A stretch of DNA of 64,000 nucleotides from a virus (IMGVR_UViG_3300032308_002578:1-64000), one strand, 5' to 3'. Numbered from the stretch's first letter, positions 2,688-57,151 are shown. Numbers and translations are program-made. The notes: generated from the letters alone by a model not told the origin.

Positions 2688-3236
2688 ATGCCTGCTCCCG
2701 ATCTTATGTTTGAACACGGCCTTGATGTTAAGAAGGGCTGGTTCGACATGGCGTCGCTCGATTACGACGCCAAACTTAATTCGAACGTTTCTTTCGACGT
2801 TCCGCGTGGTCGCGTTGTCCACGTTGACTCGAACGGCACGTTCACGCCCGGCGCTCACAACACCGGCGTTGCGATTTTCCTGCTGAACGGTTCGGCTGAC
2901 GCCGACGTCAGCAACCCCGGCACCACAGCCGCTGGCAACTTCATGCACAAGGCCATCGCGCCGAGTGGCAAGATGTCCGGCCTCGTGGCCACCGGTGGTT
3001 ACGAGATCTCGACTACCGAGTTTGATTCGGCGCGTACGTACGCTGCTGGTGACCTGCTCACAGCCGCTATCTCGACGTCGAACGCCACCACTGGCGGTGT
3101 CCTCACCAACAACGGTGTCGTGCAGTATGTCAACCCTGTCGTCGGCGTCGTGTCGAGCGGCAAGGCCAAGAACCACAACGGCGTCATGTCGCTGTCGTTC
3201 TGGTGCGTGTGGCTGCCCGGCGCGGCCGTTGGCTGA
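2688..3236 (+). CDS. capsid decoration/cement protein
   Basis: 182 aa, Gly/Thr/Val-rich beta protein directly upstream of the major capsid gene; strong SD. Confidence 0.6.
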   Translation: MPAPDLMFEHGLDVKKGWFDMASLDYDAKLNSNVSFDVPRGRVVHVDSNGTFTPGAHNTGVAIFLLNGSADADVSNPGTTAAGNFMHKAIAPSGKMSGLVATGGYEISTTEFDSARTYAAGDLLTAAISTSNATTGGVLTNNGVVQYVNPVVGVVSSGKAKNHNGVMSLSFWCVWLPGAAVG

Positions 3237-6160: not shown

Positions 6161-6239
6161 TAGTTCGCGAATTGCGAACGCCGGTGTTACAAGATTGCCG
6201 CTCAAAAAATTAAGAGCATTGGTTCTGTAACGCTCGGCG

Positions 6240-6268
6240 CTAAATATTGCCAAAAATTACGGCATATT
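6240..6268 (+). promoter_or_regulatory. candidate phage promoter CTAAAT-N8-AAATYRCGGCATATT, copy 1
   Basis: Same bipartite motif with identical spacing at 48015-48043; both copies are intergenic and upstream of non-structural gene clusters. Confidence 0.55.
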
Positions 6269-6361
6269 CTCTGACGCGCCTTCTGCTATGGGCACGTTAA
6301 CCAATACACGCTGGGCACGCATGTACTGGTTTACGCTTCCGTGCCGTAGAGGTAACGCCTG

Positions 6362-6875: not shown

Positions 6876-7700
6876 ATGACCGAGACGCTGCTGCCGGGTT
6901 ACCATGCCCGACGCGGTGAGACCCTCGCGGCCAAGTTCTTGGCTATGGTTACGAATACCGTGCGCGCCGTGCTGCTCGTCGGCGCGCCCGGTACTGGCAA
7001 AACGTTCTTCGCGGAATGTTTTGCCAAAGGCCGGCAGGCAGAGCACTTCTTTGTGCCCTGCCATCCATGGTTGACCAACGAGGAGGTCAATCAGGGCATC
7101 GACATCGGCAAGGTCGCTGTCGGTGTCTCACACGCCGACGAGGCGTACCTCGACGGGCAGGTGCTGAAGGCGATCAAAGCCACCAAGCACCGCGAAGTTG
7201 TCCTCGTGCTGGACGAGGTCGAGAAGGCTGGAACGCGGTTCTACGCCCTGATTCTCGATTTCTTGCAGCACGGTCGGGTGCCAGACGCCCGACACCATTT
7301 CCATCAGGCAAATCTCCATAACCTCTTTATCGTGCTCACCGCGAACGAAGAGGGCGAGATCCCTGAAGCCGTGAAGCGGCGCTGCTTCAGAGTGGAAATG
7401 GAATTCCTGCCGGAGAACGTCGAGACCGACGTGCTTCGGAAGTCGACGGGCGCCCCGGGCGGCGCGTGTCGGCTTGCGGTTCGTATGGCTAACGCCATTC
7501 GGACTCGCGGGGAGTCCAAGCCCAGCCTGCAGGAGTTGCGTGAACTCCTGCGGACACGCGATCTGGTGGAGTCTGCCGACGAGGCGGACGCCCTGATCGA
7601 CGGGTTCCTTGTAAAGGACCCGAAGGACCGCGAGGCGATCGTCCGCGTGACGGCGCGTCCCGGCGCCGTTCTCTTCGGTGAGTTCAAGAAGAGCGGCTGA
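6876..7700 (+). CDS. MoxR-like AAA+ ATPase
   Basis: Walker A GAPGTGKT, Walker B LVLDEVEK, sensor LTAN, arginine finger AVKRRC; SD AAGGAG. Confidence 0.9.
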   Translation: MTETLLPGYHARRGETLAAKFLAMVTNTVRAVLLVGAPGTGKTFFAECFAKGRQAEHFFVPCHPWLTNEEVNQGIDIGKVAVGVSHADEAYLDGQVLKAIKATKHREVVLVLDEVEKAGTRFYALILDFLQHGRVPDARHHFHQANLHNLFIVLTANEEGEIPEAVKRRCFRVEMEFLPENVETDVLRKSTGAPGGACRLAVRMANAIRTRGESKPSLQELRELLRTRDLVESADEADALIDGFLVKDPKDREAIVRVTARPGAVLFGEFKKSG

Positions 7701-7710
7701 TGTTGTTTAT

Positions 7711-7753
7711 GGGGGCACGACCTTGTGGCGGAGGTCGTGCCCCCTATTCCTTT
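7711..7753 (+). terminator. intergenic hairpin (attenuator or terminator-like) between AAA and vWA genes
   Basis: 13-bp stem GGGGGCACGACCT / AGGTCGTGCCCCC followed by TATTCCTTT. Confidence 0.55.
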
Positions 7754-7772
7754 CCGCCAGCAAGGAGTGAAC

Positions 7773-9200
7773 ATGGCCGTAACCTTACGGCAATTGCAGC
7801 GGTGGCTGCACGCGTCACGGCAGAACAGCCGCGACGCGTTCGGCTACGAAGACGCCACCGAAGTTGGCCAGTTCGCCGGCTGGCTGCGGGGTGACAAAGT
7901 CGCGTCAGCGATGGTGCGTAACGGCACCATCGTTACAACGTGCACGTGTTCGCGGTGTATCGACAGCGCACCGCTTGTCGACGCGCGGGTTGGTAACCTC
8001 GTCGATTCATTGGCGAAAAAACACGGCGCAAACACCACGCTGGAGGCCCTCATGCGTCAGTCTCCGCCTGAAGGGTTTGAAAACCCGGACGGCGAGAGCA
8101 ATGATGATGAGGACGAGGGCGAGGACGAAAGCGACGGTCAGTCCGGACAGGGCGATGGCGAAGACGCTGATAACGAGTCCGACAACGAAAATGAGTCAAA
8201 TGATGGGTCGGAGTCTGAGAGCCAGAGCCAGCCGCAGCCGGGCCAAGCGAAAGGGCAGGAATCCCCGCAGCAGGCCAAAAAGCGGCAAGAGCAGGCAGCG
8301 CTGCAGGAAACCAAACAGAAGTTGCAGGACCTTCAACAGCAGATGAAGGACCGGCCGCATTCTTCTGTCGTACGGCAGCAAATCAAACGGACCAAGCGGG
8401 CGCTCAAAGAAGCGCGCCGCGCGGCGTCGTTTGGACGGGGTGACGGCCCGTCGCTCGAAGCCCGTAAGCAGATTGCCGGTGCCCACGGCAGGCTGCAAAA
8501 AGTTTCGCCCGCACTCCGGGCGCAAATGGCGGCCCTGATTAACCTGCTGGTTGGTCAGGGCAAAGCGGCCGGCGGCCAGATGGGGCCAATCCCCGTTCTG
8601 AGCCCGAGGAAGTTGGTTACGCGGATGCTTGTCCAGCGTCCGCTCGCCAACGCCCTCAAAGAAGACGTCGTGACTGGCCGCCCAGTCACGTTATTCTTGC
8701 CGGACGTTTCGCCGTCCTGTGAACGCCAAGCACAGGCGGCCTGCGACGTAGCCAACGCCGCAGGGTATTCCGGTGTGGCCGGTTCTGACGTACTGGTCTT
8801 CCCGCACAGCAACGGCTTCATCGACGAGACCGATGACGCCTACGTGCCGTGGTTTAACGGGAAAGTCCACACGACAGATCGGGCCGCCATAACCCGCCTC
8901 TTTAATGAGGTGGTAACCGGAAAGGGCAAGTGGCGTGTAAGGGCCGTCGTGATTATCGGCGATCACGACGGCGTGGACCTCTACCGACAACTCGCGGCAC
9001 TCCCGCGAATTGCTCGGATGATCTGGCTCCACAACGAGCAGAGGGATTACTCCAAACGCACGTTGTCAATGGCCGAAGGCGCCGACCGCAGGCTTGACGG
9101 CTGGCTCCCGGAAAGTTTGCAGAAGGTCTCGATGGTGTATGGGTGCGTAACCCAACCCCATATGGTGCAGGGTCTGAAAATGGCTCTGCAGGATCAATAG
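7773..9200 (+). CDS. vWA (MIDAS) domain protein with acidic linker, partner of the AAA+ ATPase
   Basis: SD AAGGAG before ATG 7773; DxSxS motif (LFLPDVSPS) and later VIIGD; D/E/Q/S-rich linker; MoxR-vWA pairing is well known. Confidence 0.75.
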   Translation: MAVTLRQLQRWLHASRQNSRDAFGYEDATEVGQFAGWLRGDKVASAMVRNGTIVTTCTCSRCIDSAPLVDARVGNLVDSLAKKHGANTTLEALMRQSPPEGFENPDGESNDDEDEGEDESDGQSGQGDGEDADNESDNENESNDGSESESQSQPQPGQAKGQESPQQAKKRQEQAALQETKQKLQDLQQQMKDRPHSSVVRQQIKRTKRALKEARRAASFGRGDGPSLEARKQIAGAHGRLQKVSPALRAQMAALINLLVGQGKAAGGQMGPIPVLSPRKLVTRMLVQRPLANALKEDVVTGRPVTLFLPDVSPSCERQAQAACDVANAAGYSGVAGSDVLVFPHSNGFIDETDDAYVPWFNGKVHTTDRAAITRLFNEVVTGKGKWRVRAVVIIGDHDGVDLYRQLAALPRIARMIWLHNEQRDYSKRTLSMAEGADRRLDGWLPESLQKVSMVYGCVTQPHMVQGLKMALQDQ

Positions 9201-9747
9201 CCCGAATGTGCAAACGGCACGCAGAAAGGTGGTTTACGATGCCATTTCCTTAACTAGGGTCTTTATACCCTACGCGACCGTGGCTCCGACGGCCGCGTAG
9301 GGAGTTGGCAAACGGGCGGTGTTGATTCGGAGTAAAAGCCTTGTCACGTAAGGCTGGTGGACAAAAGTTTTACCCTTGTTGGGTGAGACAGCGTGACGGG
9401 AGACTGGCAAATAAGCCCTAGATTTAAACTTGACTGCATTTGGGACGTCGCTTGCGAAACGCCAAATACAGTGGGAGTCGAACCAATTTTGCCCCGTGCT
9501 GCTCGTTACCTGAACAAAAGGATCAGATGAGTTCAGGTTTAACACCAGCATGGACCGTGCCGCGCGCACATATAGTCAAGTGGCAGGAACTGATCTCCGA
9601 ACCACGTGCTTTCTCGTTGTGCCCCCGCAAGGGTGTTACCGTCACGACCGGTGAACAACGAGCCCAGAGTATGCGAGCAATCGCTATTACTGGGGCAGAG
9701 GGGGGCGACGGCGCGTCATAGTACGCCGCCGTCCCCCTCTTTTTTTT
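9201..9747 (+). ncRNA. large structured non-coding RNA of unknown family
   Basis: No credible ORF; about ten helices including long-range pairs 9254-60/9415-21, 9429-36/9573-80, 9494-9501/9546-53 and 9613-20/9655-62; two GCAA tetraloops; complementary loops; ends in a terminator. 5' end is approximate. Confidence 0.7.
9697..9747 (+). terminator. intrinsic terminator
   Basis: AGAGGGG..GACGGCG / CGCCGTC-CCCCTCT followed by a T tract. Confidence 0.85.
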
Positions 9748-9787
9748 AGCTATCAGCGATCGGGTAGAATAATAATAACGCGGGTTT

Positions 9788-9817
9788 TTGACGTTGCGTT
9801 CGGTTTCGCAGTATAAA
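9788..9817 (+). promoter_or_regulatory. sigma70-like promoter
   Basis: TTGACG-N18-TATAAA upstream of the 9844 gene, just after a terminator. Confidence 0.45.
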
Positions 9818-9843
9818 ATTACGTCAAGCCACACGGAACTTCT

Positions 9844-11202
9844 ATGCCGCAAGACCGCATTTATCCGTTCCGCCGGGTTTCCGTCGACCACATGGTTCGC
9901 GGAGTAACGCGCGTCTGGTGGCAACTGGAGTCGCAATTTCGCGAGTCCGGGCCGTACGTCTTTCAACTGCAGTATGGCTACACGCCTAGCAATAAGTCTA
10001 CGGATTGGAAAAACGTCGGCGACCCGGTCACCAACGGGTATTTTGCGCTCGACCCCGGCTGGCGCGAGGGCGGCACAGAACTGCTTACCCATTACCGGGT
10101 GACGTTGACGACGCCCCAAGAGATTTACGTTTCTCAGCCAGCTAACTGCTTTGGCGAATTAACGGAGCGCGATTGGCTACTGGCCCGAGAGATTGTTCGA
10201 AAAGAGCAACTTCGGCACCGGCTCGTGTCTGTTCCCGGTTTCTTATTAAAGCAGTACCGGTATGGCAAACCGTGCAAACGCTGTCGCGATGAATTGACGC
10301 AAGAAATCACAGATAACAATTGCATTTTATGTAACGGCACAGGGTTCGAGGTCGGCTATCACCCGGCTATGCCTCTGCAGTGTTGGGACCTGTCGCCGGA
10401 AATGATAGAAGAACACGTCGACGCTGAGCTAAAAGGTTCGACACGAGAAAACGCGTATATTAAAGCCCGCGTAATCGGTTTCCCGGCGCTGAATAAAAAA
10501 GACATCTGGGTTAATGGTTCAACAGATGAGCGTTGGACAGTCGAGGTGGTGCAGGTCGTGGCAGCGGTGCGCAACGTGCCGCTGGTTTGCGAAGTGCGCC
10601 TCGGATTAGTGCCGTTTAACAACAGCATTTACGCCCTTGAAATTGGCGGAGAACCGCCGAACCGAGATCCGCGACCGCAGGTGGGGTTTGAGGGTTGCGG
10701 CGATATCGTTATCGATTCAAACTACACCGGTGATGACGCGCTGGCGTATGTTGACGCAACGGGCGACCCCATTGAAGGCGCGAGCGTATACGTTTTTAAA
10801 TTAACGGATATTGATGCAGCCAGCCCGGCGTTGCCAGACCGCGCAATAGCTGTCGCACAGACGATAACTGTGGCAAACGGTCGCTGGGCAGTACCCTTAA
10901 ACCTGTTTGCCGGTGATTACGGCGTGCTGTACGAGAAGTTGGGCGAATACGGCCCCGACTTGCAGATTATTACCGTACAGCCGGCTGCCGCGGCCCCGGG
11001 CTATATCTGGCGGATGCAGGCCCCTCTGCGCGCAGAAGCCGGTGACGGCTTTGACGGAATCGGCACGGAAACCGGCGCGCCGCTGTCAGTCGACGACAGG
11101 CAGCGCCCGGCAGCCCCCTTAAGAAGCACCGCGCGGCCGCCAGCACGCCGGGCATCGAACCGCAACACGCAAAACAACGACAACGATTTTTGGGCGGTGT
11201 AA
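9844..11202 (+). CDS. neck/head-closure-like protein with Zn-binding motif
   Basis: CKRC...CILCNGTGF motif; C-terminal beta-sandwich-like segment (DATGDPIEGASVYV); located between head and tail genes. Confidence 0.55.
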   Translation: MPQDRIYPFRRVSVDHMVRGVTRVWWQLESQFRESGPYVFQLQYGYTPSNKSTDWKNVGDPVTNGYFALDPGWREGGTELLTHYRVTLTTPQEIYVSQPANCFGELTERDWLLAREIVRKEQLRHRLVSVPGFLLKQYRYGKPCKRCRDELTQEITDNNCILCNGTGFEVGYHPAMPLQCWDLSPEMIEEHVDAELKGSTRENAYIKARVIGFPALNKKDIWVNGSTDERWTVEVVQVVAAVRNVPLVCEVRLGLVPFNNSIYALEIGGEPPNRDPRPQVGFEGCGDIVIDSNYTGDDALAYVDATGDPIEGASVYVFKLTDIDAASPALPDRAIAVAQTITVANGRWAVPLNLFAGDYGVLYEKLGEYGPDLQIITVQPAAAAPGYIWRMQAPLRAEAGDGFDGIGTETGAPLSVDDRQRPAAPLRSTARPPARRASNRNTQNNDNDFWAV

Positions 11203-25469: not shown

Positions 25470-27135
25470 AAATTTTGTCCGGTCTGAATTTGAACTAACG
25501 GCAGAATTCACCGACGCAAAGTCCGGTGCGAGGAAAGCACTGTTTAAAGACATCCTTTCGATTTCGGCTACGTTTGCGCTGAATTCAATTCCGGTTGCGT
25601 CCCTTGTGGTCGCGTGCGGGCGGAACGTGTCAGACAAGTCGCAGCCCGCCACCATTGACGCCGCGCTAAAAGTGTTAAAGCCGCGCGACAAGGTCAAAGT
25701 TACGCTGACAATCAGGACAAACGACGGCGAGACAAGTTTAATGCCCGAGGGTCGCGGCGTAATTTTCGACGGGTATTACGCCGGTGCGGGCTATCAGCGG
25801 TCAAATAATTCGGTTAGTTATGCGCTGCATTTGATTCATTGGTTGGACGATTTAAACTGCTCTTCCATGATCAACGGCAACTGGCACCCCGGCGTGCCGC
25901 ACGATTTGGCGCAAGCCGCCAACTCTGACGTGGCGCTCATGCGCGGCGGTGCGGACTGGACAGGCAAGAATAAAGGTCTGACAAATCCCGTGCCGATTGT
26001 GGACGCGACAGGAAGCATTATTAATAAATCCAACATGCAAGATGATTTATGGGAAAAAGTCCTCAAGCCCATGTTCAAAGAAATCGCGTCGTTCAGCCAC
26101 CCCCGCGAGCAAAACTACGCGCGAGACAATAACCCGCTTACAAACGGCAACAACGCGGCGGCATTACTGGCGCTGGAGCGCATGCCTGGCACGGCGCCTT
26201 TTCCGGGAAAACTGCCGCTCTTTATGGGCGGCGTAAACGCCAAGGCTATCGCTGACGGCGCAAACAAAGGGATTAGCGGTATCGCCAAAAACGGAATGGC
26301 CTACTCGTCATTCTGGAGCAAACTCGTCGGCGAATATGCGCCTGAATTTTTGTTTGCCGTGTCGCCGTGCCCTGAGTTTGCAAACGTTGTTCCGTTCTTT
26401 GGCGGTCTTCGTGGCTACTGGAAAGAGATCGACGGCCGGGAATATACCTACGCGAATTTTGATTCCAACCTCGCGAGCCTTATTGAGTCGATCGAGATTC
26501 GGTATTCTCAAAAGGCCACGTCTAATTGGGCGCTTGGCGGCAGAGCCCCCGGGCTTTCATATTTCAGGCCGTGGGGTCGGTTTCCAAAAAAGAATAATGA
26601 TCTCCGCGGCCAAATTATCGTAAAAGATCCGCCGGGTTGGCTGGCAAACGCTATTTCGCAGGGCGCATTCTCGCCACTGACGACCGGCTTTGGTCGACGC
26701 CTTGGCGACACTGCGTGCCCCGGCAAGGGCCCCGAAGATACGCCGGCGGGTGTGCTCCGCCCGGCGGACGCTGAAAAAGATGTAGAGAAATCGAACATCG
26801 TCAACATATTTTGCGAGCACTGGTACAAAACTGAAGTGCTCTCTAAGCGGTACGGTGAAATGTCTGGAAAGTTACGTTTTGACATTGCACCCGGCAGCAT
26901 TGTCAAAATTAAAGAGCCAGATCTAAGCGCCGGTAGCGAACTCACGACATACGCCGCTGTCACGCATGTGTCATTTTTGATTAACACAGAGCAACACACA
27001 GCCGGCACGTCGTTTACACTATTAAATCTGCGGTCGGAACTTGAGAACAACGACGATTTATTTACAAGCGCTGCGCCGCCCCTGTACCCGACCGCAAAGT
27101 GGGTTGGCGGGCCGCTGGTAAGAGGGTTATCCTGA
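25459..27135 (+). CDS. baseplate hub-like protein (gp27/gpD-like)
   Basis: ATG 25459 or 25462; motifs IFDGYY and GKLRFDIAPGSIVKI...VTHVSF resemble hub proteins; synteny. Confidence 0.55.
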   Translation: MMAENFVRSEFELTAEFTDAKSGARKALFKDILSISATFALNSIPVASLVVACGRNVSDKSQPATIDAALKVLKPRDKVKVTLTIRTNDGETSLMPEGRGVIFDGYYAGAGYQRSNNSVSYALHLIHWLDDLNCSSMINGNWHPGVPHDLAQAANSDVALMRGGADWTGKNKGLTNPVPIVDATGSIINKSNMQDDLWEKVLKPMFKEIASFSHPREQNYARDNNPLTNGNNAAALLALERMPGTAPFPGKLPLFMGGVNAKAIADGANKGISGIAKNGMAYSSFWSKLVGEYAPEFLFAVSPCPEFANVVPFFGGLRGYWKEIDGREYTYANFDSNLASLIESIEIRYSQKATSNWALGGRAPGLSYFRPWGRFPKKNNDLRGQIIVKDPPGWLANAISQGAFSPLTTGFGRRLGDTACPGKGPEDTPAGVLRPADAEKDVEKSNIVNIFCEHWYKTEVLSKRYGEMSGKLRFDIAPGSIVKIKEPDLSAGSELTTYAAVTHVSFLINTEQHTAGTSFTLLNLRSELENNDDLFTSAAPPLYPTAKWVGGPLVRGLS

Positions 27136-27947
27136 TGCCAACACAGCCGCAACCAAAAGGTATGCCGTCTATCCTCGGTGACGTAGATGCGCCGTTCTCT
27201 GCCCCAACCCGGATTACCGGCGTTGCGGATGACTTCACGGACATTCACACCCAGTGGCTGAAAAACAAGACGCCAGACACGAACACGCAACTGCTGAAAC
27301 GCGTGCAGCCCGTGATCGACACGGCTGTCAGCAGTTACGGCGGCGCATCTTCCAGTCCTGTGTTTAAGTCGCGCGCGCGACTAATGGCGCTAAAAGCCAT
27401 GGAGACGTACGACCCCAAGCGCGGTAACGTCAGAACACACCTCCTGTCGCAACTGCAGAGTCTCCGCCGCTTGTCCGCGCAGGAGCAGAACATCATTTCG
27501 ATTCCGGAGCAGGTCGGGTTGGACTACCAGCGGCTCCACGCCGCCGAGAACGAACTGCGCGACAGTCTTAGCCGCGACCCTAGTGACGAGGAACTGGCTG
27601 ACGCCACGGGCCTGTCGATCAAGCGGCTGCGAAAAGTGCGCGCGTTTAACCAGCCGATTGCGTCCGGTACCACAGTGCGCGAAACAGCCGAAGAAAACTA
27701 CGACGGCGACATCGCTAGTTCTATCCCAAACCAGAACCGGTCAGCGGATGCGTGGCTGGATTTTGTATATGGCGATTTGACACCCACGGATCGGCTCGTT
27801 ATGGACATGACGCTCGGCAGAAACGGCCGGAGGCGCGCCAGCACGCAAGACATCGCGGCTCGTTTAAATATCACGCCGGGCGCTGTCAGCCAGCGCGCAG
27901 CCAAAATTCAGGCCATGATCGACAAAAGGTACGAGCACAATTTTTAA
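27135..27947 (+). CDS. phage-encoded sigma70-family sigma factor (group 3, FliA/SigB-like)
   Basis: Region 2 (AMETYDPKRGNVRTHL), region 3 (LSRDPSDEELADATGLS) and region 4 HTH (STQDIAARLNITPGAVSQ); TGATG overlap with the hub gene. Confidence 0.85.
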   Translation: MPTQPQPKGMPSILGDVDAPFSAPTRITGVADDFTDIHTQWLKNKTPDTNTQLLKRVQPVIDTAVSSYGGASSSPVFKSRARLMALKAMETYDPKRGNVRTHLLSQLQSLRRLSAQEQNIISIPEQVGLDYQRLHAAENELRDSLSRDPSDEELADATGLSIKRLRKVRAFNQPIASGTTVRETAEENYDGDIASSIPNQNRSADAWLDFVYGDLTPTDRLVMDMTLGRNGRRRASTQDIAARLNITPGAVSQRAAKIQAMIDKRYEHNF

Positions 27948-39769: not shown

Positions 39770-41007
39770 TGCCTCGTCCCGGATTTTACAACGACAACGA
39801 ATATCGCGCGTATCCGTTCATTTACACGGGCAGCGCTGATACTTCGTTGCCAACTAGCCTCATTGTAGACGCCGGCGTTGTTATGGGGCTGGATGCAGAA
39901 TTCGACCCGGCCAGCCACAGTGTGTGGCTCAGCAGTATTGCGCGCATAAATCAAATGCTGACAGTTGAATTTGCCACAGACGCGCCCGGCGCGCTAGAGG
40001 TGCCGCTCCAATTTACTATGACCATCGCCGACAACGTGTGGCAAACAGGGTTCGCAGAAACGCGCACGGCAGATCTTACCGCGGTGCCGTGCGCTGCCGA
40101 ACCCATTTGGGAGGGATTTTTAACGACAGGCGCGCTGGCGGCCGATTTGGACCCGTATTTCATAATTACATTTGCCGCGAACCAGCACCAACTCGAACCA
40201 GCGCGAATTCAAAATCTCGCCAAATCGTATTTACGCTCTATTAGCGTCGGTAATTTTGCCAGAACAACCATTCCGGCCTGCGACACGCTCAACAATACAA
40301 ACCGTCCGATTGTGTTAAACACCGAGTGCATACAAGGCGACATTCGATTTAGAGAAGGGTATAACTGCGCCATTACGCAAACAGATCGTAATCGCGAAAT
40401 TAGTATTGCCGCGACAAAAGGCGCTGGCGCTGGCGCGACAGGCGACGAACTGTGCGAAAAAAGCGGCGAATTGCCGCTGTATACCGGCGAACAGTTACCG
40501 CTCGGCCCGATTAAAGAGACAACTTTTATCGCAGCTTTTGATGTTCATGGTCAAAATCCGCCAACTGACGAGCAACTTGCAGGCTTGTTGCCAGCCACGT
40601 GCGCCGGAAACAAGACTGGTGATACATACGGCTGGAAATCAGATCTTAAACAAGCGCCCGACGTCGTACCGCCGCTACTCTACTACGATGCGCGTTATTA
40701 CACATGGAACAATATAAGCTGGATGCAGTCGTCAATTGTACGATTTAATGAAATTGTAAGCGAAAACGTCGCGGCGCCGGCGCGCGAGTTTGAAGACTTC
40801 CCGACACACATGCCGCCTGACGTGCAATCTGTGCAGGCGTTTTTAAGTGGTGGCCCGCGGTGTTGCGAACTAATTACCACAATAAACGGCGCAGGTGGCC
40901 GCACGCTTAATATCATTGGCGGTACAGGCGTTCAAATCGGTACAGCGCCGCACAAGATCACTGTGACGCTCAATACAAACTCACAAAATAGTTGCGCTAC
41001 GCCATGA
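39769..41007 (+). CDS. fibre-associated protein, paralog 5
   Basis: FYNDNEYRAYPF and ITTINGAG motifs. Confidence 0.65.
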   Translation: MPRPGFYNDNEYRAYPFIYTGSADTSLPTSLIVDAGVVMGLDAEFDPASHSVWLSSIARINQMLTVEFATDAPGALEVPLQFTMTIADNVWQTGFAETRTADLTAVPCAAEPIWEGFLTTGALAADLDPYFIITFAANQHQLEPARIQNLAKSYLRSISVGNFARTTIPACDTLNNTNRPIVLNTECIQGDIRFREGYNCAITQTDRNREISIAATKGAGAGATGDELCEKSGELPLYTGEQLPLGPIKETTFIAAFDVHGQNPPTDEQLAGLLPATCAGNKTGDTYGWKSDLKQAPDVVPPLLYYDARYYTWNNISWMQSSIVRFNEIVSENVAAPAREFEDFPTHMPPDVQSVQAFLSGGPRCCELITTINGAGGRTLNIIGGTGVQIGTAPHKITVTLNTNSQNSCATP

Positions 41008-44000
41008 GCGAAAATTTATTTAAAGACTCGCAGTGCCCGATTCAGGACGTCCCGGCCGTCGACTTCGATTTCATCACAATCGACGTCTGCTCGCCGGTCC
41101 CGATCCCGCCACCTATTTTCGGCTGCATGACGCCGGTCGTGCCGCGCGAGCCGGACACGGAACTCGGCCTGAAGTGCCCGGCGTTTGCGACAACAACTGA
41201 CATTGCAGTCGGGTACGTCGGCGATGGAAATACCGATTGCGGTGTCGACCCGAATCCGCGCCTCACGCTCGCGTTCGTCAAGACAGCCATTGATCCGTGC
41301 AATTACGAGGTCGCGGTAGACCTTAACGTGCCGATTCCTAGACCGCCGTGTGCGCCGACGGTTACGGCTGGTGAATTTATCGTCGAGGCCGGTTTTGACG
41401 ACTGCGTCGCGCCGGGCGGAGCAATTTTGGTCACGAAGAACACCACGCCGGGCGATTGCACAACGCCCGACCAGTGCGAGTTCGTCATCGATTTCAATTT
41501 GAATGTGCCGATTCCCCGCACGCCCTGCCCCGTAATCGACGCCGGAGTGTTTAAAGTCTCTTCCGGTTATTCCGATTCGCCGTGCATGCAGAACACGAAC
41601 AACAGGTTCTCAATCCGGTCAAATGTCATTCCCGGGAGTTGCAACGTCGCCGACCAGTGCGAATTTCTGGTCGATCTTGAAATTGCCGTACCGATCCCTC
41701 GCACGCCCTGCCCGGAAATCAACCTCAATAATTTTGCTGTCAGCAGCGGTTATCAAGATGCCGCGTGCATGCAGGATAAGCAAAACAAATTCAGCATTGT
41801 GGCAACCAACATTCCGGGTGACTGCAATACACCGGACCGGTGCGCGTTCGACGTTGAACTTGAAATTGCTATTCCAATTCCGCGGACACCGTGCCCAGAA
41901 ATTGGCATTACAGCACTATCGGTGTCGACGGGGTACAACGACTCGGCGTGCGTGACCGACAAAGACAACCGGTTTGAAATCACTACCCGGCATGTTCCGG
42001 GCGTAGATTGCAACGACCCGGGTACTTGCAGTTTCGATATCGAGTTGGAGTTAGTCGTTCCAATTCCAAAACCGCCGTGCCCGGAAATTAATATTACAAA
42101 ATTTTCGGTGTCGACGGGGTACAACGACTCGGCGTGCGTGACCGACAAAGACAACCGGTTTGAAATCACTACCCGGCATGTTCCGGGCGTAGATTGCAAC
42201 GACCCGGGTACTTGCAGTTTCGATGTCGAATTGGAGCTAGTCGTTCCGGTTCCGAAACCGACGTGCCCAAACATTTACGTCAACAAATTCGAGATCACTG
42301 CCGGCTATTCGCAGCAGGCGTGCGTCAAAGACAAAGACAGTAAATTTGAGATTATCGCGACGACGACGCCGAGCACAGATTGCAACACGCCGGACGCATG
42401 TGATTTTGAAATCAATCTGGAACTGTACGTTCCGATTCCAGAAACGCCGTGTCCTGAGATCAACGTTAATAAATTTGAAGTAGTTACCGCGTACGCTGGG
42501 TCGTCGTGCCTGATTAACAAGACAAACACGTTCGTTATTACGTCGACAAAAAAGCCCGGCGCCGGTTGCAATGATCCTGAGACGTGCGCGTTCGACGTAG
42601 AACTTGAGATCTATGTGCCGGTTCCGCCGCCGCCCTGCGTCGAGTTAAACGCGGGAGTTGTTACTGTCTATTCTGGCTATGCGGGTTTTGAGTGCGTCAA
42701 CAAAACCAGTGAATTACGAATTACCAAAACTACGACGCCGGCAGAGGGGTGTGATACGCCGGACACGTGCTCGTTCGATATCGACATTGACGTCGTTGTG
42801 CCAATTCCGTTGCCGCCGTGCCCTATTATCTCGAACAGCAGCACGTTCTTCACGCGCTACTCCGACGTGCCAGCGGTGCGGCAGGGTAGTTTTTTTAGGC
42901 TGATCACGCTTCCGCCGACGCCCGACTGTCAAGACCCCGGCACATGCGTGTATGTGCTCGATATTAACGTAGATACTGTTATGCCGCGGCCGCCGTGCCC
43001 GGAGTTCAACAAACAGAACATCAGAATCACGGCGGAGTACGACAATTGGAATAACCTCAATTTCAATATCACGCCGAACCACGAACTCAATATCGGTACC
43101 AACGATCCGCCAGAGTGCAAATACGACATCGATCTTGAAATTGATGTAAACATCCCGCGCCCGCCATGCACGGAAATCATTGACGGCGGCGTGTACAACA
43201 AAGGCGAACTTGTCGGGCGTTTCATCATTCAGCCCAATTTTTCTCCGGGCGATTACTGCATCAATACGCTCGGCCTCGATCTTAACCTGTGCGAAACAGA
43301 AATCGCGTTCGACCCAACAGGGGCGAAGACCGGTGGCCCTGCCGACAATTTCAAAATTTGGTATCACGACAAGGGCGAACCGTGCTCGATCGAGCCGCGT
43401 TTTGAACTGTTCATTGCGCGCGATGAAATAGACAAGTGCAAGTGGTGGATTTCGCCGTACGTCAAAATTTGTATTGAGCAGCCCAAATTTATCGTAGACG
43501 ACACGGTATACGAAGGCTGCACCTCCAGCAGCGGTGTCTATCAGCCTATTGACGAAGTAACACTTGAGACTACGACCACCGGCGGTCAGGGCGAGGAGCC
43601 GGCTGACATCAAGCACCAACTCACCGTTAAAATGAATTGCCTGCAGCCGGGCACAGTTACAATTTCGCCCAGCAGCATTGGCAGCGGCACGCTTGAGATT
43701 GCCGAAAATAAAATCAATCTTAACTTAGAGTTTAATGTTACAGACTGCCCGACAAGCGGCGGTTCAGGCGGCAGCGGTTCAGGCAGCGGTGGTTCAGGCG
43801 GCGGTGGCGGTTCTTGCGGCGGGCAAGGTGACCCCGGACCCACAGGCCCAGAAGGGCCGCAAGGGCGACCGGGCCAAAAAGGCGACAAAGGCGACAAAGG
43901 AAATGACGGACCGGCTGGGCCGGCAGGCCCGATGGGTCCTATGGGCTTGCAAGGCCCGCCGGGTGACCCCGGACCACAAGGCCAAAAGGGCGACCGCGGC

Positions 44001-45572
44001 CCGCAAGGTTTAAGGGGCCCGCAGGGTTTAATGGGTCCGATGGGTGTAGGTTTGCAGGGCCTCATGGGGCCGACAGGCTGCCGCGGCGAGCAGGGCGAGA
44101 CCGGCCTGCGCGGAATAGATGGGCCAGCAGGCGCCACAGGCGTCTCGGGCGTTACCGGGCCCACGGGCATGACAGGCCCCACTGGCGGCATAGGTGTAAC
44201 TGGCCCGTCTGGCCCGAGCGGCGCCACTGGCGCTATAGGCCCAGCTGGCGCGAGAGGAGTTACAGGCCCGTCAGGCTTGCGTGGCGCCGCAGGCCCCGCT
44301 GGCCCCGCAGGCCCCGCTGGCGCGAAAGGCGCAACGGGCGCAAACGGGCCTACAGGCCCGCAGGGCGCTACAGGCGTTGGCATTAGGGGCGCGACTGGTG
44401 TAACCGGCCCCGCAGGCCCACAGGGCGTTACGGGCGTGATAGGCGCCACCGGGGCCACAGGTGTCGGCGTTACGGGCGCAACGGGGCAGATCGGAGCTAC
44501 TGGGCTGCGGGGCGCCACCGGAGTCGGCACTACGGGCGCAACTGGTCCGGCCGGACAACGCGGCCTACAAGGCGCGCCCGGTAGTCGTGGGGCAACGGGT
44601 GTAACTGGCCCGAGCGGTATATCCGGCACAGCCGGTGTTACAGGTGCTACAGGGCCGTGCGGGCCTGCCGGGGCGCCCGCGATTGCGCCGCGGTGGCTCG
44701 GCGTAGCGTACGACGACCCGAGAAAATTTGGACCATATGTACGTAAAGGCGACTATTATCTCGCAAGTGCGCGAGCAGAAAAAATTTCAGCCGCCGCCGC
44801 CGAGCCGAACGCTAACTTGTCGCCATTTATTGATATTCAATTACATGCACAAGACATCGCTGAAGACGATATTTTTATTGCTGTGTACTACAACTGGGAC
44901 GCCGAGGAACGCGAATTTTGTCTAGACGCGCTCACCGAAACGGAAGCTAACGCGTTGTGGCACGACAATTCTCACAATATTTCTTGGCTGCACATTCCAG
45001 CAATTGCTGGACTGCGAGAATCATTAGAGACAACCGGCGCGCCAACAAACGAACAAGCAGCAATCATACGAACAACCGTACTTGAAACTATAATTGCGTT
45101 GTGCCCCGGCGGAGACGACCCTGAAGACGCAATTTTAATTTACGCTACGCTTTTTAACGTAGGTAATTTTTTAGGTTCGTGCGACGACAGCCCGAATCGA
45201 ATTTACAGCGCAACACGAACAGCAATAAAAACATTTGGCTTGTTTGCGGGCGCAACGTTTTTAGTCGACTATACGTCGTTGAATGACGAGCCGTCGCCAG
45301 CGCAAATAAACGACGACGGCAAGTGTTACATGTTTGCGCCGGAACCGCCCGTTATACCGGTTAACACCACGCCCGGCAGAGGAGTGGTCCGTGCGCCAGC
45401 GGTTGAAAATTTAAGCTGGCAAGCGTTTGGTAATCTGTACAACCCAGCACGCGTGACAAACGTGACAGCGTTAATCGGGGCTCTAGCGACCGACGGCGCA
45501 GGCAACCCACTGCACCCGACGTTCTACAACAGTTTCAAAACTGTTTTACAAACCATGTTGGGTTTAACATAA
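41004..45572 (+). CDS. long fibre protein: Cys-rich ~60-aa repeats, collagen-like region, C-terminal domain
   Basis: About 10 repeats of PIPxxPCPxI...C...C...CxFxxxLxxxV, a Gly/Ser linker, then a long Gly-X-Y run. Confidence 0.8.
41919..42224 (+). repeat. exact 120-bp duplication (41919-42038 and 42105-42224), period 186 bp
   Basis: Identical sequence TCGGTGTCGACGGGGTAC...TGCAGTTTCGAT in adjacent protein repeats. Confidence 0.9.
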
Positions 45573-47890: not shown

Positions 47891-47999
47891 CCGCACCTGC
47901 CACGCGTAGGTTGCGATCTTCCGCCGCCCTGCGCTGACTGAACGGCTGCGTTCCACGCGGCCACCGGGCTCCACGCCCTAGGTCAGCGCGGGGCGGCGG
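47891..47999 (+). other. GC-rich branched RNA structure at the end of the structural operon
   Basis: 19-bp stem 47921-39/47981-99 enclosing two hairpins; CCACGC occurs three times. Confidence 0.55.
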
Positions 48000-48636: not shown

Positions 48637-48730
48637 CTATTGACCTTTTCCTTAGATATCAACGAGGGCCACCATCAAAAAGAAATATCGGCTCGACAAA
48701 AAGGTTGATGTGGTCAAGCCGCCTTTTGTC

Positions 48731-51645: not shown

Positions 51646-52009
51646 CATGCAAATCGAAGAGGTGCAGCAGTACCGGTGGTCTAGTTATGGCCCGTACGCG
51701 TTTTTTGTGGACATCGTTATGCCGCTTGAAATTGGTTCGGCGCAGATGATCGTGGACCTCGCCCACAACCGGATCTGCGAAATGACCGTCTGCGACTACA
51801 CCCAACCCAAAAACAAGGAGGCGTACCTGTGGCGTAATCCACTGTTTCGCAAGGCCCACGCCGCCGAAGCCCGGCAGCGCGGCTACACGAAGAAACAGAT
51901 GTCGTACGCGTGGGACAACACACCGTGGGTCAACGTGCCGCCGGCGCAGATATTCAAACGGCTGCGGGAAATGGTAGCCCGGGCAAAAAAGAAAAACCCG
52001 CCGAAGTGA
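51557..52009 (+). CDS. hypothetical protein
   Basis: 150 aa ORF; start uncertain. Confidence 0.6.
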   Translation: MPVKAKTKVKAKPKRRARLPSPQDFIAAGDMQIEEVQQYRWSSYGPYAFFVDIVMPLEIGSAQMIVDLAHNRICEMTVCDYTQPKNKEAYLWRNPLFRKAHAAEARQRGYTKKQMSYAWDNTPWVNVPPAQIFKRLREMVARAKKKNPPK

Positions 52010-52058
52010 GCATCGTTGAGAGGCCCGGCGGGTTTGCTGCGCGCAACTAATTAACGTG

Positions 52059-57080: not shown

Positions 57081-57151
57081 GCCCCCATAGCATAATGATA
57101 ATGCGGCTGATTTGTAATCAGCGGATGAAGGTTTGATTCCTTCTGGGGGCT
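57081..57151 (+). tRNA. tRNA-Thr (UGU), CCA not encoded
   Basis: Acceptor GCCCCCA/TGGGGGC, D stem GCAT/ATGC, anticodon arm GCTGA-TTTGTAA-TCAGC, T arm GAAGG-TTTGATT-CCTTC. Confidence 0.85.

What the first reader, a model, noticed from the sequence alone, without database searches (positions are those of the whole stretch)
9201..9747. About 500-nt highly structured ncRNA with predicted kissing loops and pseudoknot
Seen: domain 1 is closed by CTAGGGT/GCCCTAG (9254/9415) and holds hairpins 9268-9302, 9337-9355 and 9371-9385. Domain 2 is closed by CTTGACTG/TAGTCAAG (9429/9573) and holds a long hairpin 9494-9553 whose loop GATCAG complements the loop CTGATC of hairpin 9580-9604. A three-way junction 9613-9662 and hairpin 9663-9693 both have GCAA tetraloops. 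CGTGACGG (9392) complements CCGTCACG (9639) and the loop GTCACG (9343). Inference: a large folded RNA comparable in scale to phage ROOL/GOLLD-class RNAs or a ribozyme. I cannot match it to tmRNA, RNase P or an intron.
Basis: partly seen in the sequence, partly recalled or inferred. Interest (0 to 1): 0.78.

Follow-up and report, generated by a model that had tools for sequence, protein, structure and literature searches.

The report
New large folded phage RNA
The stretch is a real, uncatalogued, roughly 550-base intricately folded non-coding RNA that a group of large freshwater phages carries right behind a chaperone-type gene pair, adding a new member to the short list of big 'ornate' RNAs whose jobs are unknown.

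Summary
Window 9201-9747 (+) lies between a vWA-domain gene and a conserved 452-aa virion-module gene and ends in an intrinsic terminator. I found 8 further distinct homologues in related ~200-kb phage contigs. Most hairpins covary: RNAalifold gave 82 pairs, 51 with compensatory change. In the 5' core 85% of cells pair, against 73% shuffled and 35-45% slid. The pseudoknot (9343-9348 with 9392-9397) and the kissing loop (9521-9526 with 9590-9595) both covary. Two 'domain-closing' helices and the 9392/9639 pairing are not supported by the homologues. No Rfam 15 family matches. All nine carry a Shine-Dalgarno site plus a 3-5-codon mini-ORF inside the fold. In 39 related phage records searched, the RNA occurs only in the 10 that carry the MoxR-type ATPase + vWA pair. 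Function is unknown. My best guess is a trans-acting folded RNA, possibly a partner of that chaperone pair. No expression data could be obtained.

The parts
9201..9747 (+). Whole structured non-coding RNA, from just after the vWA gene's stop codon (TAG 9198-9200) to the end of the terminator's U-run
   Evidence: Intergenic. Homologous in 8 other distinct sequences. 82 consensus pairs, 51 with compensatory change. No conserved ORF. G-U plus U-G 27 against A-C plus C-A 4 in the paired columns, so the + strand is the folded strand.
9206..9221 (+).
   Evidence: pair I3; also in the MFE fold. Own-sequence duplex -20.2 against -14.7 kcal/mol between sequences, 27 of 100000 permutations as good. L007 has 11 consecutive pairs of different sequence.
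9556..9571 (+). P1, 3' strand
9224..9232 (+). Shine-Dalgarno-like GAAAGGTGG (GAAAGGAGG in most homologues)
   Evidence: Conserved in 9 of 9 homologues, with a 3-7-nt spacer to a start codon
9239..9253 (+). Mini-ORF ATG CCA TTT CCT TAA (MPFP*)
   Evidence: A 3-5-codon ORF sits at the same place in 9 of 9 homologues: MPFP four times (one possibly MMPFP), MTWP, MHWPR, MFT, MNFT, MGTQ. The four MPFP copies differ only at third codon positions. Only 2 such signatures occur on both strands of the 64-kb window.
9268..9302 (+). Hairpin H1
   Evidence: A 9-15-bp hairpin at this place in all 9 homologues, with different stem sequences; the loop is similar in 6
9337..9355 (+). Hairpin H2 (AGCCTT/AAGGCT); its loop 9343-9348 is the 5' strand of the pseudoknot
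   Evidence: helix 1: 92.5% of cells paired, 3 of 6 pairs with compensatory change
9359..9367 (+). Conserved single-stranded GGACAAAAG
   Evidence: Nearly invariant in the alignment
9367..9389 (+). Hairpin H3 with conserved loop CYTYGTYGG
   Evidence: helices 3 and 4: 6 of 7 and 2 of 2 pairs with compensatory change
9392..9397 (+). Pseudoknot 3' strand CGTGAC, pairs with 9343-9348
   Evidence: helix 2 (6 of 6 pairs compensatory)
9398..9418 (+). Hairpin H4 (GGG...CCC) with conserved TGG in the loop
   Evidence: GGGTG/CACCC in most homologues, GGGAC/GTCCC in L026. Weakest helix: 69% of cells paired in the MAFFT register.
9438..9467 (+). Hairpin H5: ATTTGG-GA-CG-TCGC / GCGA-AA-CG-CCAAAT, the most conserved sequence block (GGGACGTC...GAAACGCC)
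   Evidence: helix 6. The distal and outer pairs covary; the core is invariant.
9496..9552 (+). Long arm whose apical loop (9516-9530) carries kissing strand GATCAG (9521-9526)
   Evidence: A3 columns 418-434 with 466-482, compensatory changes; I16
9580..9605 (+). Hairpin whose loop carries kissing strand CTGATC (9590-9595)
   Evidence: A3 columns 547-551 with 607-611; for example CG 5 / UA 4 at one pair
9613..9662 (+). Three-way junction. Outer helix CTCGTTGT/ACAACGAG. Arm a 9623-9633 has a GCAA loop. Arm b 9636-9654 has the conserved loop TCACGAC.
   Evidence: The outer helix is mostly invariant, with compensatory changes in L026 and L072. The arm b closing pair is A-U, G-U or G-C.
9663..9694 (+). 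Hairpin with GCAA tetraloop (9677-9680)
   Evidence: A3 columns 728-735 with 769-776. By my reading, GNRA loops occur in 5 of 9 homologues.
9697..9747 (+). Intrinsic terminator: 17-bp G+C-rich stem (9697-9713 / 9724-9740) and a run of 8 T (9740-9747)
   Evidence: (I1). A hairpin plus T-run ends all 9 homologues.
9745..9770 (+). Promoter-like motif TTTAGCTATCAGCG-N-TAGAAT for the downstream 452-aa gene; not part of the RNA
   Evidence: Conserved behind the terminator in all 9 homologues, and twice in L015 and L072
6876..7700 (+). MoxR-type AAA+ ATPase gene of the same operon
   Evidence: Pfam AAA_5 at 5e-13. Best solved relative is NorQ, over the full length. JGI names it 'MoxR-like ATPase'.
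7773..9200 (+). vWA/MIDAS-domain protein gene (the ORF is listed from GTG 7725; ATG 7773 is the conserved start)
   Evidence: DxSxS motif (DVSPS) is invariant. In the AF2 model the C-terminal domain best matches the vWA domain of Thermus phage Ro60: Z 9.8, rmsd 3.5, 142 residues aligned. It also matches Rea1/MDN1 MIDAS and NorD vWA.

Best explanation
Shown: this is a conserved, complex-folded non-coding RNA of about 550 nt (555-700 nt in relatives) that belongs to no catalogued family. It is most likely transcribed as the untranslated tail of a phage operon (152-aa ORF, MoxR-type AAA+ ATPase, vWA protein) and ends at its own intrinsic terminator. Its fold has a large 5' domain closed by helix P1 (9206-9221 with 9556-9571). 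That domain holds a ribosome-binding site with a 3-5-codon mini-ORF, hairpins H1-H5, an H-type pseudoknot and a long arm. A 3' domain follows (hairpin 9580-9605, a three-way junction, a GNRA hairpin and the terminator). The two domains are tied together by a 6-bp loop-loop contact. Inferred: the RNA acts as a folded molecule in its own right, not as a switch for a neighbouring gene. The downstream gene has its own promoter behind the terminator, and the RNA's loops and junctions are more conserved than its stems. My odds: a real structured RNA family, about 0.9. A trans-acting RNA that works with the MoxR-vWA pair as a ribonucleoprotein, plausibly in virion morphogenesis, about 0.3. An RNA-only device of the ROOL/GOLLD kind, perhaps multimerising through the complementary loops, about 0.25. 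The mini-ORF is probably translated, and in 5 of 9 it ends in Pro-stop. It may keep a ribosome on the otherwise naked 5' leader. That role is speculation. The confidence given (0.55) is for the whole statement, that is, a real structured RNA that acts in trans as a folded molecule.
For: Nine distinct homologues lie at the same place. RNAalifold gives 82 pairs, 51 with compensatory change. In the 5' core, 85.4% of cells pair, against 73.0% shuffled (0 of 500 shuffles reach it) and 35-45% when partners are slid; 21 of 38 pairs show compensatory change. The pseudoknot, kissing loop and P1 each pair far better within a sequence than between sequences: 0 of 20000, 3 of 50000 and 27 of 100000 permutations as good. 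G-U/U-G 27 against A-C/C-A 4, and the MFE is lower on the + strand in 9 of 9, so the + strand is the one that folds. A terminator ends all 9. There is no conserved ORF and no Rfam match. Model R1 hits 10 of 39 related phage records searched, one copy each, and these are exactly the records that carry the ATPase+vWA pair; only 2 of the 18 records at least 90% complete have it. No sigma-70-like promoter was found between the ATPase gene and the RNA. The mini-ORF signature is in 9 of 9 homologues and is rare in the window, 2 on both strands. MoxR-vWA pairs in jumbo phages and in the archaeal virus ATV have been proposed as virion-assembly chaperones (PMC7824862, passages read). The cassette sits at the head of the neck/tail gene block: sheath, Neck1-like and baseplate J hits.
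Against: There is no expression evidence of any kind, and the host is unknown. All homologues come from one phage clade. The tree of the neighbouring 452-aa protein allows a single origin of the cassette, since 6 of 8 carriers form one clade. So the RNA-cassette linkage may be shared ancestry and not function, and relatedness can inflate covariation counts. The vWA protein's N-terminal domain shows no recognised RNA-binding fold (best Z 3.0). Pfam finds no TROVE or other RNA-binding domain. More distant relatives of the ATPase (29-33% identity, ~42-kb phages) have no match to R1. The minus strand also folds well in shuffling tests. P1's 5' strand starts 0-9 nt after the vWA stop codon, so terminating ribosomes should disturb it. 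This fits a cis role about as well as a trans role.
Confidence: 0.55

Rival explanations
1. It is a cis-acting 3' untranslated region. The fold protects the operon mRNA from 3' exonucleases, or sets its processing and translation, and has no function away from that mRNA.
For: The RNA starts directly after the vWA stop codon, and no promoter-like site was found in front of it. P1's 5' strand lies within a terminating ribosome's footprint. A second conserved RNA element, a hairpin plus pseudoknot, sits in the ATPase-vWA spacer next to the vWA ribosome-binding site. That shows this operon uses RNA structure for its own control.
Against: A terminator hairpin alone would protect a 3' end. About 500 nt with a covarying pseudoknot, a kissing loop, GNRA loops and nearly invariant loops and junctions is far more than known stabilisers need. 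The conserved parts are mostly unpaired nucleotides, which is typical of binding or tertiary-contact sites.
Confidence: 0.15
2. It is a sensor that gates read-through from the cassette operon into the late virion genes. The big fold and the mini-ORF would decide whether the terminator at 9697-9747 forms.
For: It has a leader-peptide-like mini-ORF, ends in a terminator and lies directly upstream of the structural gene block.
Against: The terminator stem has no evident alternative partner that is conserved. The mini-ORF lies about 450 nt from the terminator. A conserved promoter-like motif stands between the terminator and the next gene in all 9. In L015 and L072 an extra gene with its own terminator is inserted there. 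No riboswitch family matches.
Confidence: 0.08
3. It is a ribozyme of a new class, self-cleaving or otherwise catalytic.
For: Its size, pseudoknot, three-way junction and invariant unpaired nucleotides resemble the make-up of large ribozymes.
Against: No match to any ribozyme, intron or RNase P family. There is no exon context and no conserved cleavage-site signature. Most large bacterial ncRNAs of this kind have shown no catalysis (recalled knowledge).
Confidence: 0.07
4. It is not a functional RNA: a decayed gene or neutral spacer that happens to fold.
For: G+C-rich sequence folds well on both strands.
Against: Compensatory changes occur in dozens of pairs. Tertiary pairings covary. Sequence islands are conserved at 47% mean column identity, while the stems between them change. 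Indels are not in multiples of three, and the short translated matches fall in different frames among homologues.
Confidence: 0.02

Closest known systems
ROOL and GOLLD RNAs (large 'ornate' RNAs of bacteria and their phages; cryo-EM shows homo-oligomeric RNA-only assemblies: PMC12286853, title and start of abstract seen)
   Same: Several hundred nucleotides, many helices, tertiary contacts, phage-borne, no known function. Complementary loops could in principle pair between molecules.
   Different: No sequence or structure match to either family model. A different host range (large freshwater phages). An internal ribosome-binding site and mini-ORF. Fixed position behind a MoxR-vWA gene pair. 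Oligomerisation not tested.
phi29 packaging RNA (pRNA) (recalled knowledge; its Rfam family was among those scanned)
   Same: A phage-encoded structured RNA used with an ATPase in virion morphogenesis. Two loops of the same molecule are complementary and covary.
   Different: pRNA is about 120-174 nt and occurs in small phi29-like phages. Its loops pair between molecules to form a ring on the portal. Here the RNA is three to four times larger, the neighbouring ATPase is MoxR-type and not a packaging ATPase, and it is unknown whether the loops pair within or between molecules. No model match.
Ro60 (Rsr) with Y RNA, including phage Ro60 (PMC12135203 and PMC4201824, titles and starts of abstracts seen)
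   Same: A vWA/MIDAS-domain protein encoded next to a structured ncRNA. The best structural match of this vWA domain is the vWA domain of Thermus phage phiLo Ro60 (Z 9.8).
   Different: No TROVE ring domain was found. Y RNAs are about 100-200 nt with a tRNA-like module, and ARAGORN and Rfam find none here. A vWA domain alone does not bind RNA in Ro60.
MoxR-vWA chaperone pairs (NorQ/NorD, CbbQ/CbbO; pairs in jumbo phages and in virus ATV, PMC7824862 passages) and Rea1/Midasin
   Same: The two protein genes upstream are of this type. Rea1, a dynein-type AAA protein with a MIDAS domain, remodels an RNA-protein particle, the pre-60S ribosome (entry titles; the function is recalled).
   Different: No RNA partner is described for bacterial or phage MoxR-vWA pairs in the papers I searched. 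The link to the RNA here is adjacency only.

Membership tests
Any Rfam 15 family (including ROOL, GOLLD, OLE, raiA, HEARO, pRNA, Y RNA, tmRNA, RNase P, group I/II introns, riboswitches) | Match to the family's covariance model | tested here: not met
   No match in 9201-9690 at the gathering scores or at E up to 10. The only hits, microRNA-type models, lie on the terminator hairpin. Eight homologous loci give nothing consistent at E up to 1.
tmRNA / tRNA-like RNA | tRNA-like domain and tag reading frame recognisable by ARAGORN | tested here: not met
   ARAGORN finds 0 genes in 8800-10200. The mini-ORF has its own SD and AUG, unlike a tmRNA tag frame.
Conserved structured ncRNA (generic) | Base pairs kept through compensatory changes in homologues, above controls | tested here: met
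Conserved structured ncRNA (generic) | Not protein-coding | tested here: met
   No conserved ORF. The short translated matches fall in different frames. The 3-5-codon mini-ORF is the only exception.
Conserved structured ncRNA (generic) | Transcribed | not testable with these tools
   No RNA run was listed for the stretch
Intrinsic terminator (3' end of the RNA) | G+C-rich hairpin followed by a run of U | tested here: met
   17-bp stem 9697-9713/9724-9740, then 8 T. The same arrangement is in all 9 homologues. The tool's own terminator scan did not list it.
phi29-type pRNA | Two complementary loops that pair between molecules to form a ring | tested here: inconclusive
   Complementary, covarying loops exist. 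Whether they pair within or between molecules cannot be told from sequence.
Ro60-Y RNA ribonucleoprotein | TROVE-domain protein encoded beside the RNA | tested here: not met
   No Pfam TROVE hit in the window protein or in 28 family members. Only the vWA domain resembles Ro60.
MoxR-vWA chaperone pair (the neighbouring genes) | AAA_5/MoxR-type ATPase next to a protein with a vWA domain and DxSxS MIDAS motif | tested here: met
   Pfam's own vWA models do not reach significance, so the vWA call rests on the motif and the predicted fold.

The most novel reading that the evidence does not exclude
The RNA is the third subunit of a phage MoxR-vWA machine. It would be a large RNA scaffold, possibly ring- or cage-forming through its complementary loops as in phi29 pRNA or ROOL/GOLLD, that the ATPase-vWA pair loads or remodels during head-tail morphogenesis. 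That would be the first RNA partner of a MoxR-class chaperone, and a second, independent invention of an RNA part in phage assembly.
Probability: 0.18. Interest if true: 0.9.

Novelty: new variant of a known kind. Interest (0 to 1): 0.7.

Why it matters
Only about a dozen classes of large (over 300 nt), intricately folded bacterial or phage RNAs are known, and most still lack a function (recalled knowledge). Each new class has been a source of new RNA architecture. This one offers three testable handles. The first is a fixed protein context, a MoxR-type ATPase and a vWA/MIDAS protein, a pair otherwise known to remodel protein or RNA-protein complexes. The second is a pair of covarying complementary loops that could act within or between molecules. 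The third is a conserved, probably translated mini-ORF enclosed in the fold, which is unusual for such RNAs. At 550 nt with well-defined helices it is a practical target for chemical probing and cryo-EM.

Tried and rejected
- Nucleotide search of the INPHARED phage records found no match.
- An exact-motif scan of IMG/VR with an 18-mer found none.
- A 16-specified-base motif in IMG/VR gave 29 places, about the number expected by chance. Only those in the already known phage records (L079, L086, L094, L099) were real. The 25 that I scanned had no R1 match apart from one weak partial hit in L075 (9.8 bits, E 0.7).
- A 19-specified-base motif in 185,579 species genomes gave 21 places, none with an R1 match.
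- Single-protein locus searches found no close relatives; alignments were needed.
- The metagenome scan added only 2 loci.
- Sequencing runs: no RNA holder was listed.
- Earlier notes of this scan held nothing by sequence or by place.
- Literature: no paper holds MoxR + von Willebrand + noncoding RNA + phage.
- The catalogue of about 10,000 viral candidate RNAs (PMC10690425) reports motifs of 29-151 nt only (passages). Five conserved strings of this RNA were absent from the 6 supplementary files that could be searched; three files were not searched, so a sub-motif may still be listed there.
- The Minerva preprint mentions no MoxR or vWA.
- vWA protein: Pfam, PHROGs, NCBIfam, PADLOC and a PDB sequence profile gave nothing meaningful.
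- The ESM Atlas gave only sub-threshold leads, including a CobT cluster at 0.83.
- The N-terminal domain model (pLDDT 82) has no clear structural relative. The best Z is 3.0, and several of the weak rows are winged-helix DNA-binding domains, which proves nothing.
- Distant ATPase relatives in ~42-kb phages (L144-L149) have a different gene after the ATPase and no R1 match.
- Considered and dropped: pairing of the SD region with the terminator's U-run, predicted by RNAalifold (purine/U-rich, not covarying).
- Considered and dropped: pairing of GGACAAAAG with the H3 loop (a U-to-C change in the loop is not compensated).
- Considered and dropped: a k-turn in H5 (the sequence does not fit the consensus as I recall it).

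Full report
WHERE IT LIES. The window belongs to an IMG/VR virus record of 87,750 bases, estimated to be 43% complete. Its relatives are phage contigs of about 200 kb, several with terminal repeats. Positions 9201-9843 hold no long conserved ORF. They lie between ORF 7725-9200 and ORF 9844-11202, both on the + strand. The downstream 452-aa protein has 224 relatives at E <= 0.001 and the upstream protein 72, almost all unnamed. Downstream come a Neck1-like protein (weak), a sheath-like protein and a baseplate J protein. So the stretch stands at the head of the neck/tail gene block.

THE NEIGHBOURING GENES. ORF 6876-7700 is an AAA_5 ATPase (Pfam 5e-13). Its best solved relative is NorQ, matched over the full length. 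JGI names a cluster member 'MoxR-like ATPase'.

The next protein has an invariant DxSxS motif. In its AlphaFold model (mean pLDDT 70), the C-terminal domain best matches the vWA domain of Thermus phage phiLo Ro60: Z 9.8, rmsd 3.5, 142 residues aligned. It also matches Rea1/MDN1 MIDAS and NorD vWA domains (Foldseek probability 0.91-0.97, E about 2e-3). Pfam's own vWA models do not reach significance. Its conserved start is ATG 7773.

Together the two genes are a MoxR-vWA chaperone-type pair. Most related phages lack them: there the 452-aa gene follows a 330-aa ORF directly, or follows a homologue of the window's 152-aa ORF.

HOMOLOGUES OF THE RNA. In 11 of the 58 IMG/VR loci found with the 452-aa protein, the vWA gene lies upstream, separated by 594-1158 nt. 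Two metagenome contigs add one more distinct copy and one partial copy. After removing duplicates there are 9 distinct sequences including the window, 548-701 nt long, with 47% mean column identity. The alignment shows nearly invariant islands: GAAAGGAGG, GGACAAAAG, GGGACGTC...GAAACGCC, TTTCTCGTTGT and CCGYCAYGRYCGGNGAACAACGAGCC. Segments of variable length and sequence separate them.

SECONDARY STRUCTURE.
- RNAalifold on the whole alignment predicts 82 pairs, 51 of them with at least one compensatory double change.
- For the 5' core (window 9327-9470) I wrote a structure with five nested helices and one pseudoknot and counted it. 85.4% of cells pair, against 73.0% after shuffling (0 of 500 shuffles reach it) and 35-45% when partners are slid by 1-3 columns. 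21 of 38 pairs carry compensatory changes.
- H4 is the weakest helix (69% of cells paired), partly because MAFFT misplaces the window by one column.
- H1 exists in all nine as a 9-15-bp hairpin with different stem sequences.
- G-U plus U-G pairs number 27 against 4 A-C plus C-A, and the + strand has the lower MFE in 9 of 9. So the + strand is the RNA strand, in line with the terminator and the gene direction.

TERTIARY AND LONG-RANGE PAIRINGS. MAFFT cannot hold the register of short loop pairings. I therefore compared the duplex energy of each sequence's own two partners with that of partners taken from other sequences, and permuted the assignments.
- Pseudoknot (H2 loop with the strand before H4): own -6.36, cross -2.53 kcal/mol, 0 of 20000 permutations as good.
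- Kissing loop: own -9.34, cross -6.00, 3 of 50000. Examples are GATCAG/CTGATC in the window, GGTTGG/CCAACC in L016, AATAGG/CCTATT in L072 and GTCAAG/CTTGAC in L009.
It has 11 consecutive pairs of quite different sequence in L007 and 9-11 in L009 and L016. This P1 encloses the ribosome-binding site, the mini-ORF, H1-H5 and the long arm.

- CTAGGGT/GCCCTAG fails the same test (36609 of 50000). It also competes with the conserved H4.
- CTTGACTG/TAGTCAAG fails it too (28780 of 50000).
- The match of 9392 to 9639 is perfect in the window (I14). But 9639 is the nearly invariant loop of arm b, while 9392 changes together with the H2 loop. So that match is a by-product in this one sequence.

THE MINI-ORF. 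All nine sequences have an SD-like core, a spacer of 3-7 nt, ATG (GTG in one), 3-5 sense codons and a stop. The peptides are MPFP in four (one may start one codon earlier), MTWP, MHWPR, MFT, MNFT and MGTQ. The four MPFP copies differ only at third codon positions, and L009 replaces TAA with TGA. Only 2 such signatures exist on both strands of the 64-kb window among 353 SD-like cores, and one is this one. I take translation as likely but not shown. In some copies the TTT codon could instead pair with GAAAGG, although that pairing is absent in L009 and L026. The distance from the stop codon to H1 varies from 2 to 20 nt, so there is no fixed geometry between a terminating ribosome and H1.

ENDS AND TRANSCRIPTION. 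A 17-bp G+C-rich hairpin and eight T end the window's RNA, and all homologues end alike. Behind it stands a conserved motif, TTTAGCTATCAGCG, a few bases, then TAtAAT. It recurs after other terminators in L015 and L072, and I read it as the promoter of the next gene. No sigma-70-like site was found between the ATPase gene and the RNA. A different conserved motif lies upstream of the 152-aa ORF. The RNA is therefore most simply the tail of the operon transcript. This is inference: no RNA run was listed.

WHAT IT IS NOT. Rfam 15 gives no match in 9201-9690, at gathering scores or at E up to 10. Nothing consistent appears in eight homologous loci. ARAGORN finds nothing. There is no conserved ORF.

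DISTRIBUTION. A covariance model of the 5' core (R1, 148 positions) finds only the known copies in 77 held loci. It hits 10 of 39 whole phage records, one copy each. Those are exactly the records with the ATPase-vWA pair, and only 2 of the 18 records at least 90% complete have it. It finds nothing at 21 motif matches in bacterial and archaeal genomes. It also finds nothing in ~42-kb phages whose ATPase is 29-33% identical.

On a tree of the 452-aa protein, 6 of the 8 distinct carriers form one clade. The window and L026 sit on long unresolved branches, and a single origin is not excluded. The linkage of RNA and gene pair is therefore absolute in the data, but it may reflect one ancestral insertion.

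HOW IT MAY WORK. Shown: a conserved, intricate fold. Inferred: it acts as a folded RNA and not as a switch for its neighbours. The next gene has its own promoter, an extra gene can be inserted after the RNA (L015, L072), and conservation is highest in loops and junctions.

The closest functional analogies are as follows.
- The phage-borne ornate RNAs ROOL and GOLLD, which self-assemble (PMC12286853, abstract seen).
- phi29 pRNA, whose two complementary loops pair between molecules (recalled).
- RNA-protein machines built on vWA/MIDAS domains: Ro60 with Y RNA, and Rea1 on pre-ribosomes.

MoxR-vWA pairs of jumbo phages and of virus ATV have been proposed as virion-assembly chaperones (PMC7824862, passages). 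That fits the position of this cassette.

Three earlier notes of this scan report other RNAs beside MoxR-vWA genes. They are unchecked leads, not evidence. I did find a conserved hairpin-pseudoknot in the ATPase-vWA spacer of this clade as well.

Against a direct RNA-protein partnership: the vWA protein's N-terminal domain has no recognisable RNA-binding fold, and nothing but adjacency links the parts.

VERDICT. This is a real, new family of large structured RNA, a new variant within the known kind of 'ornate' phage/bacterial RNAs. Its function is unknown.

Noticed in passing
window 7711-7744, 7726-7731 with 7754-7759: In the spacer between the ATPase and vWA genes there is a 12-bp G+C-rich hairpin. 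Its loop (TGGCGG) is complementary to CCGCCA just upstream of the vWA gene's Shine-Dalgarno site (7762-7767). The stem covaries and the loop/partner pair is kept in 4 of 6 relatives compared; L004 and L026 lack the element. It is likely a pseudoknot that controls or couples vWA translation.
   Followed up: partly
window 7725-7773: The vWA ORF is listed from GTG 7725. The conserved start with its own SD is ATG 7773, giving 475 aa, as in the homologues.
   Followed up: partly
window 51996-52032 (-), 47923-47997 (+), 57081-57151 (+): Rfam matches above the gathering scores elsewhere in the window: abiF RNA (45.8 bits), DUF3800-VIII RNA (42.6 bits) and one tRNA (67.5 bits).
   Followed up: no
window 9745-9770 and 48650-48665; L015:2972 and 3469; L072:1673 and 2309: A phage-specific promoter-like motif, TTTAG(C/A)TATCAGCG, a few bases, then TA(t/g)AAT, directly follows intrinsic terminators in front of structural genes. 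A looser copy lies at 48652.
   Followed up: partly
window 6237-6280; L015 about 2985-3030; L072 about 1690-1740 and 2325-2375: A second conserved upstream motif (GCTAAATA...CAAAAA...GGCATAT...) precedes the 152-aa ORF that heads the cassette operon. It also precedes extra small genes in L015 and L072. It may be another promoter class.
   Followed up: no
window 27099-27947 and 40992-45572: The phage encodes a sigma-70-family protein (region 3, 1.3e-10) and a 1526-aa protein with collagen triple-helix repeats (5.8e-32).
   Followed up: no
window 6876-7700 versus 7773-9200: The ATPase is far better conserved among the cassette-bearing phages (66-82% identity) than its vWA partner (about 37-45% for the same phages). 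The vWA protein carries a long acidic, disordered linker (residues about 120-178 of the listed ORF).
   Followed up: no
L015:3022-3411; L072 about 1760-2290: In two relatives an extra gene with its own promoter-like motif and terminator is inserted between the RNA's terminator and the 452-aa gene.
   Followed up: no
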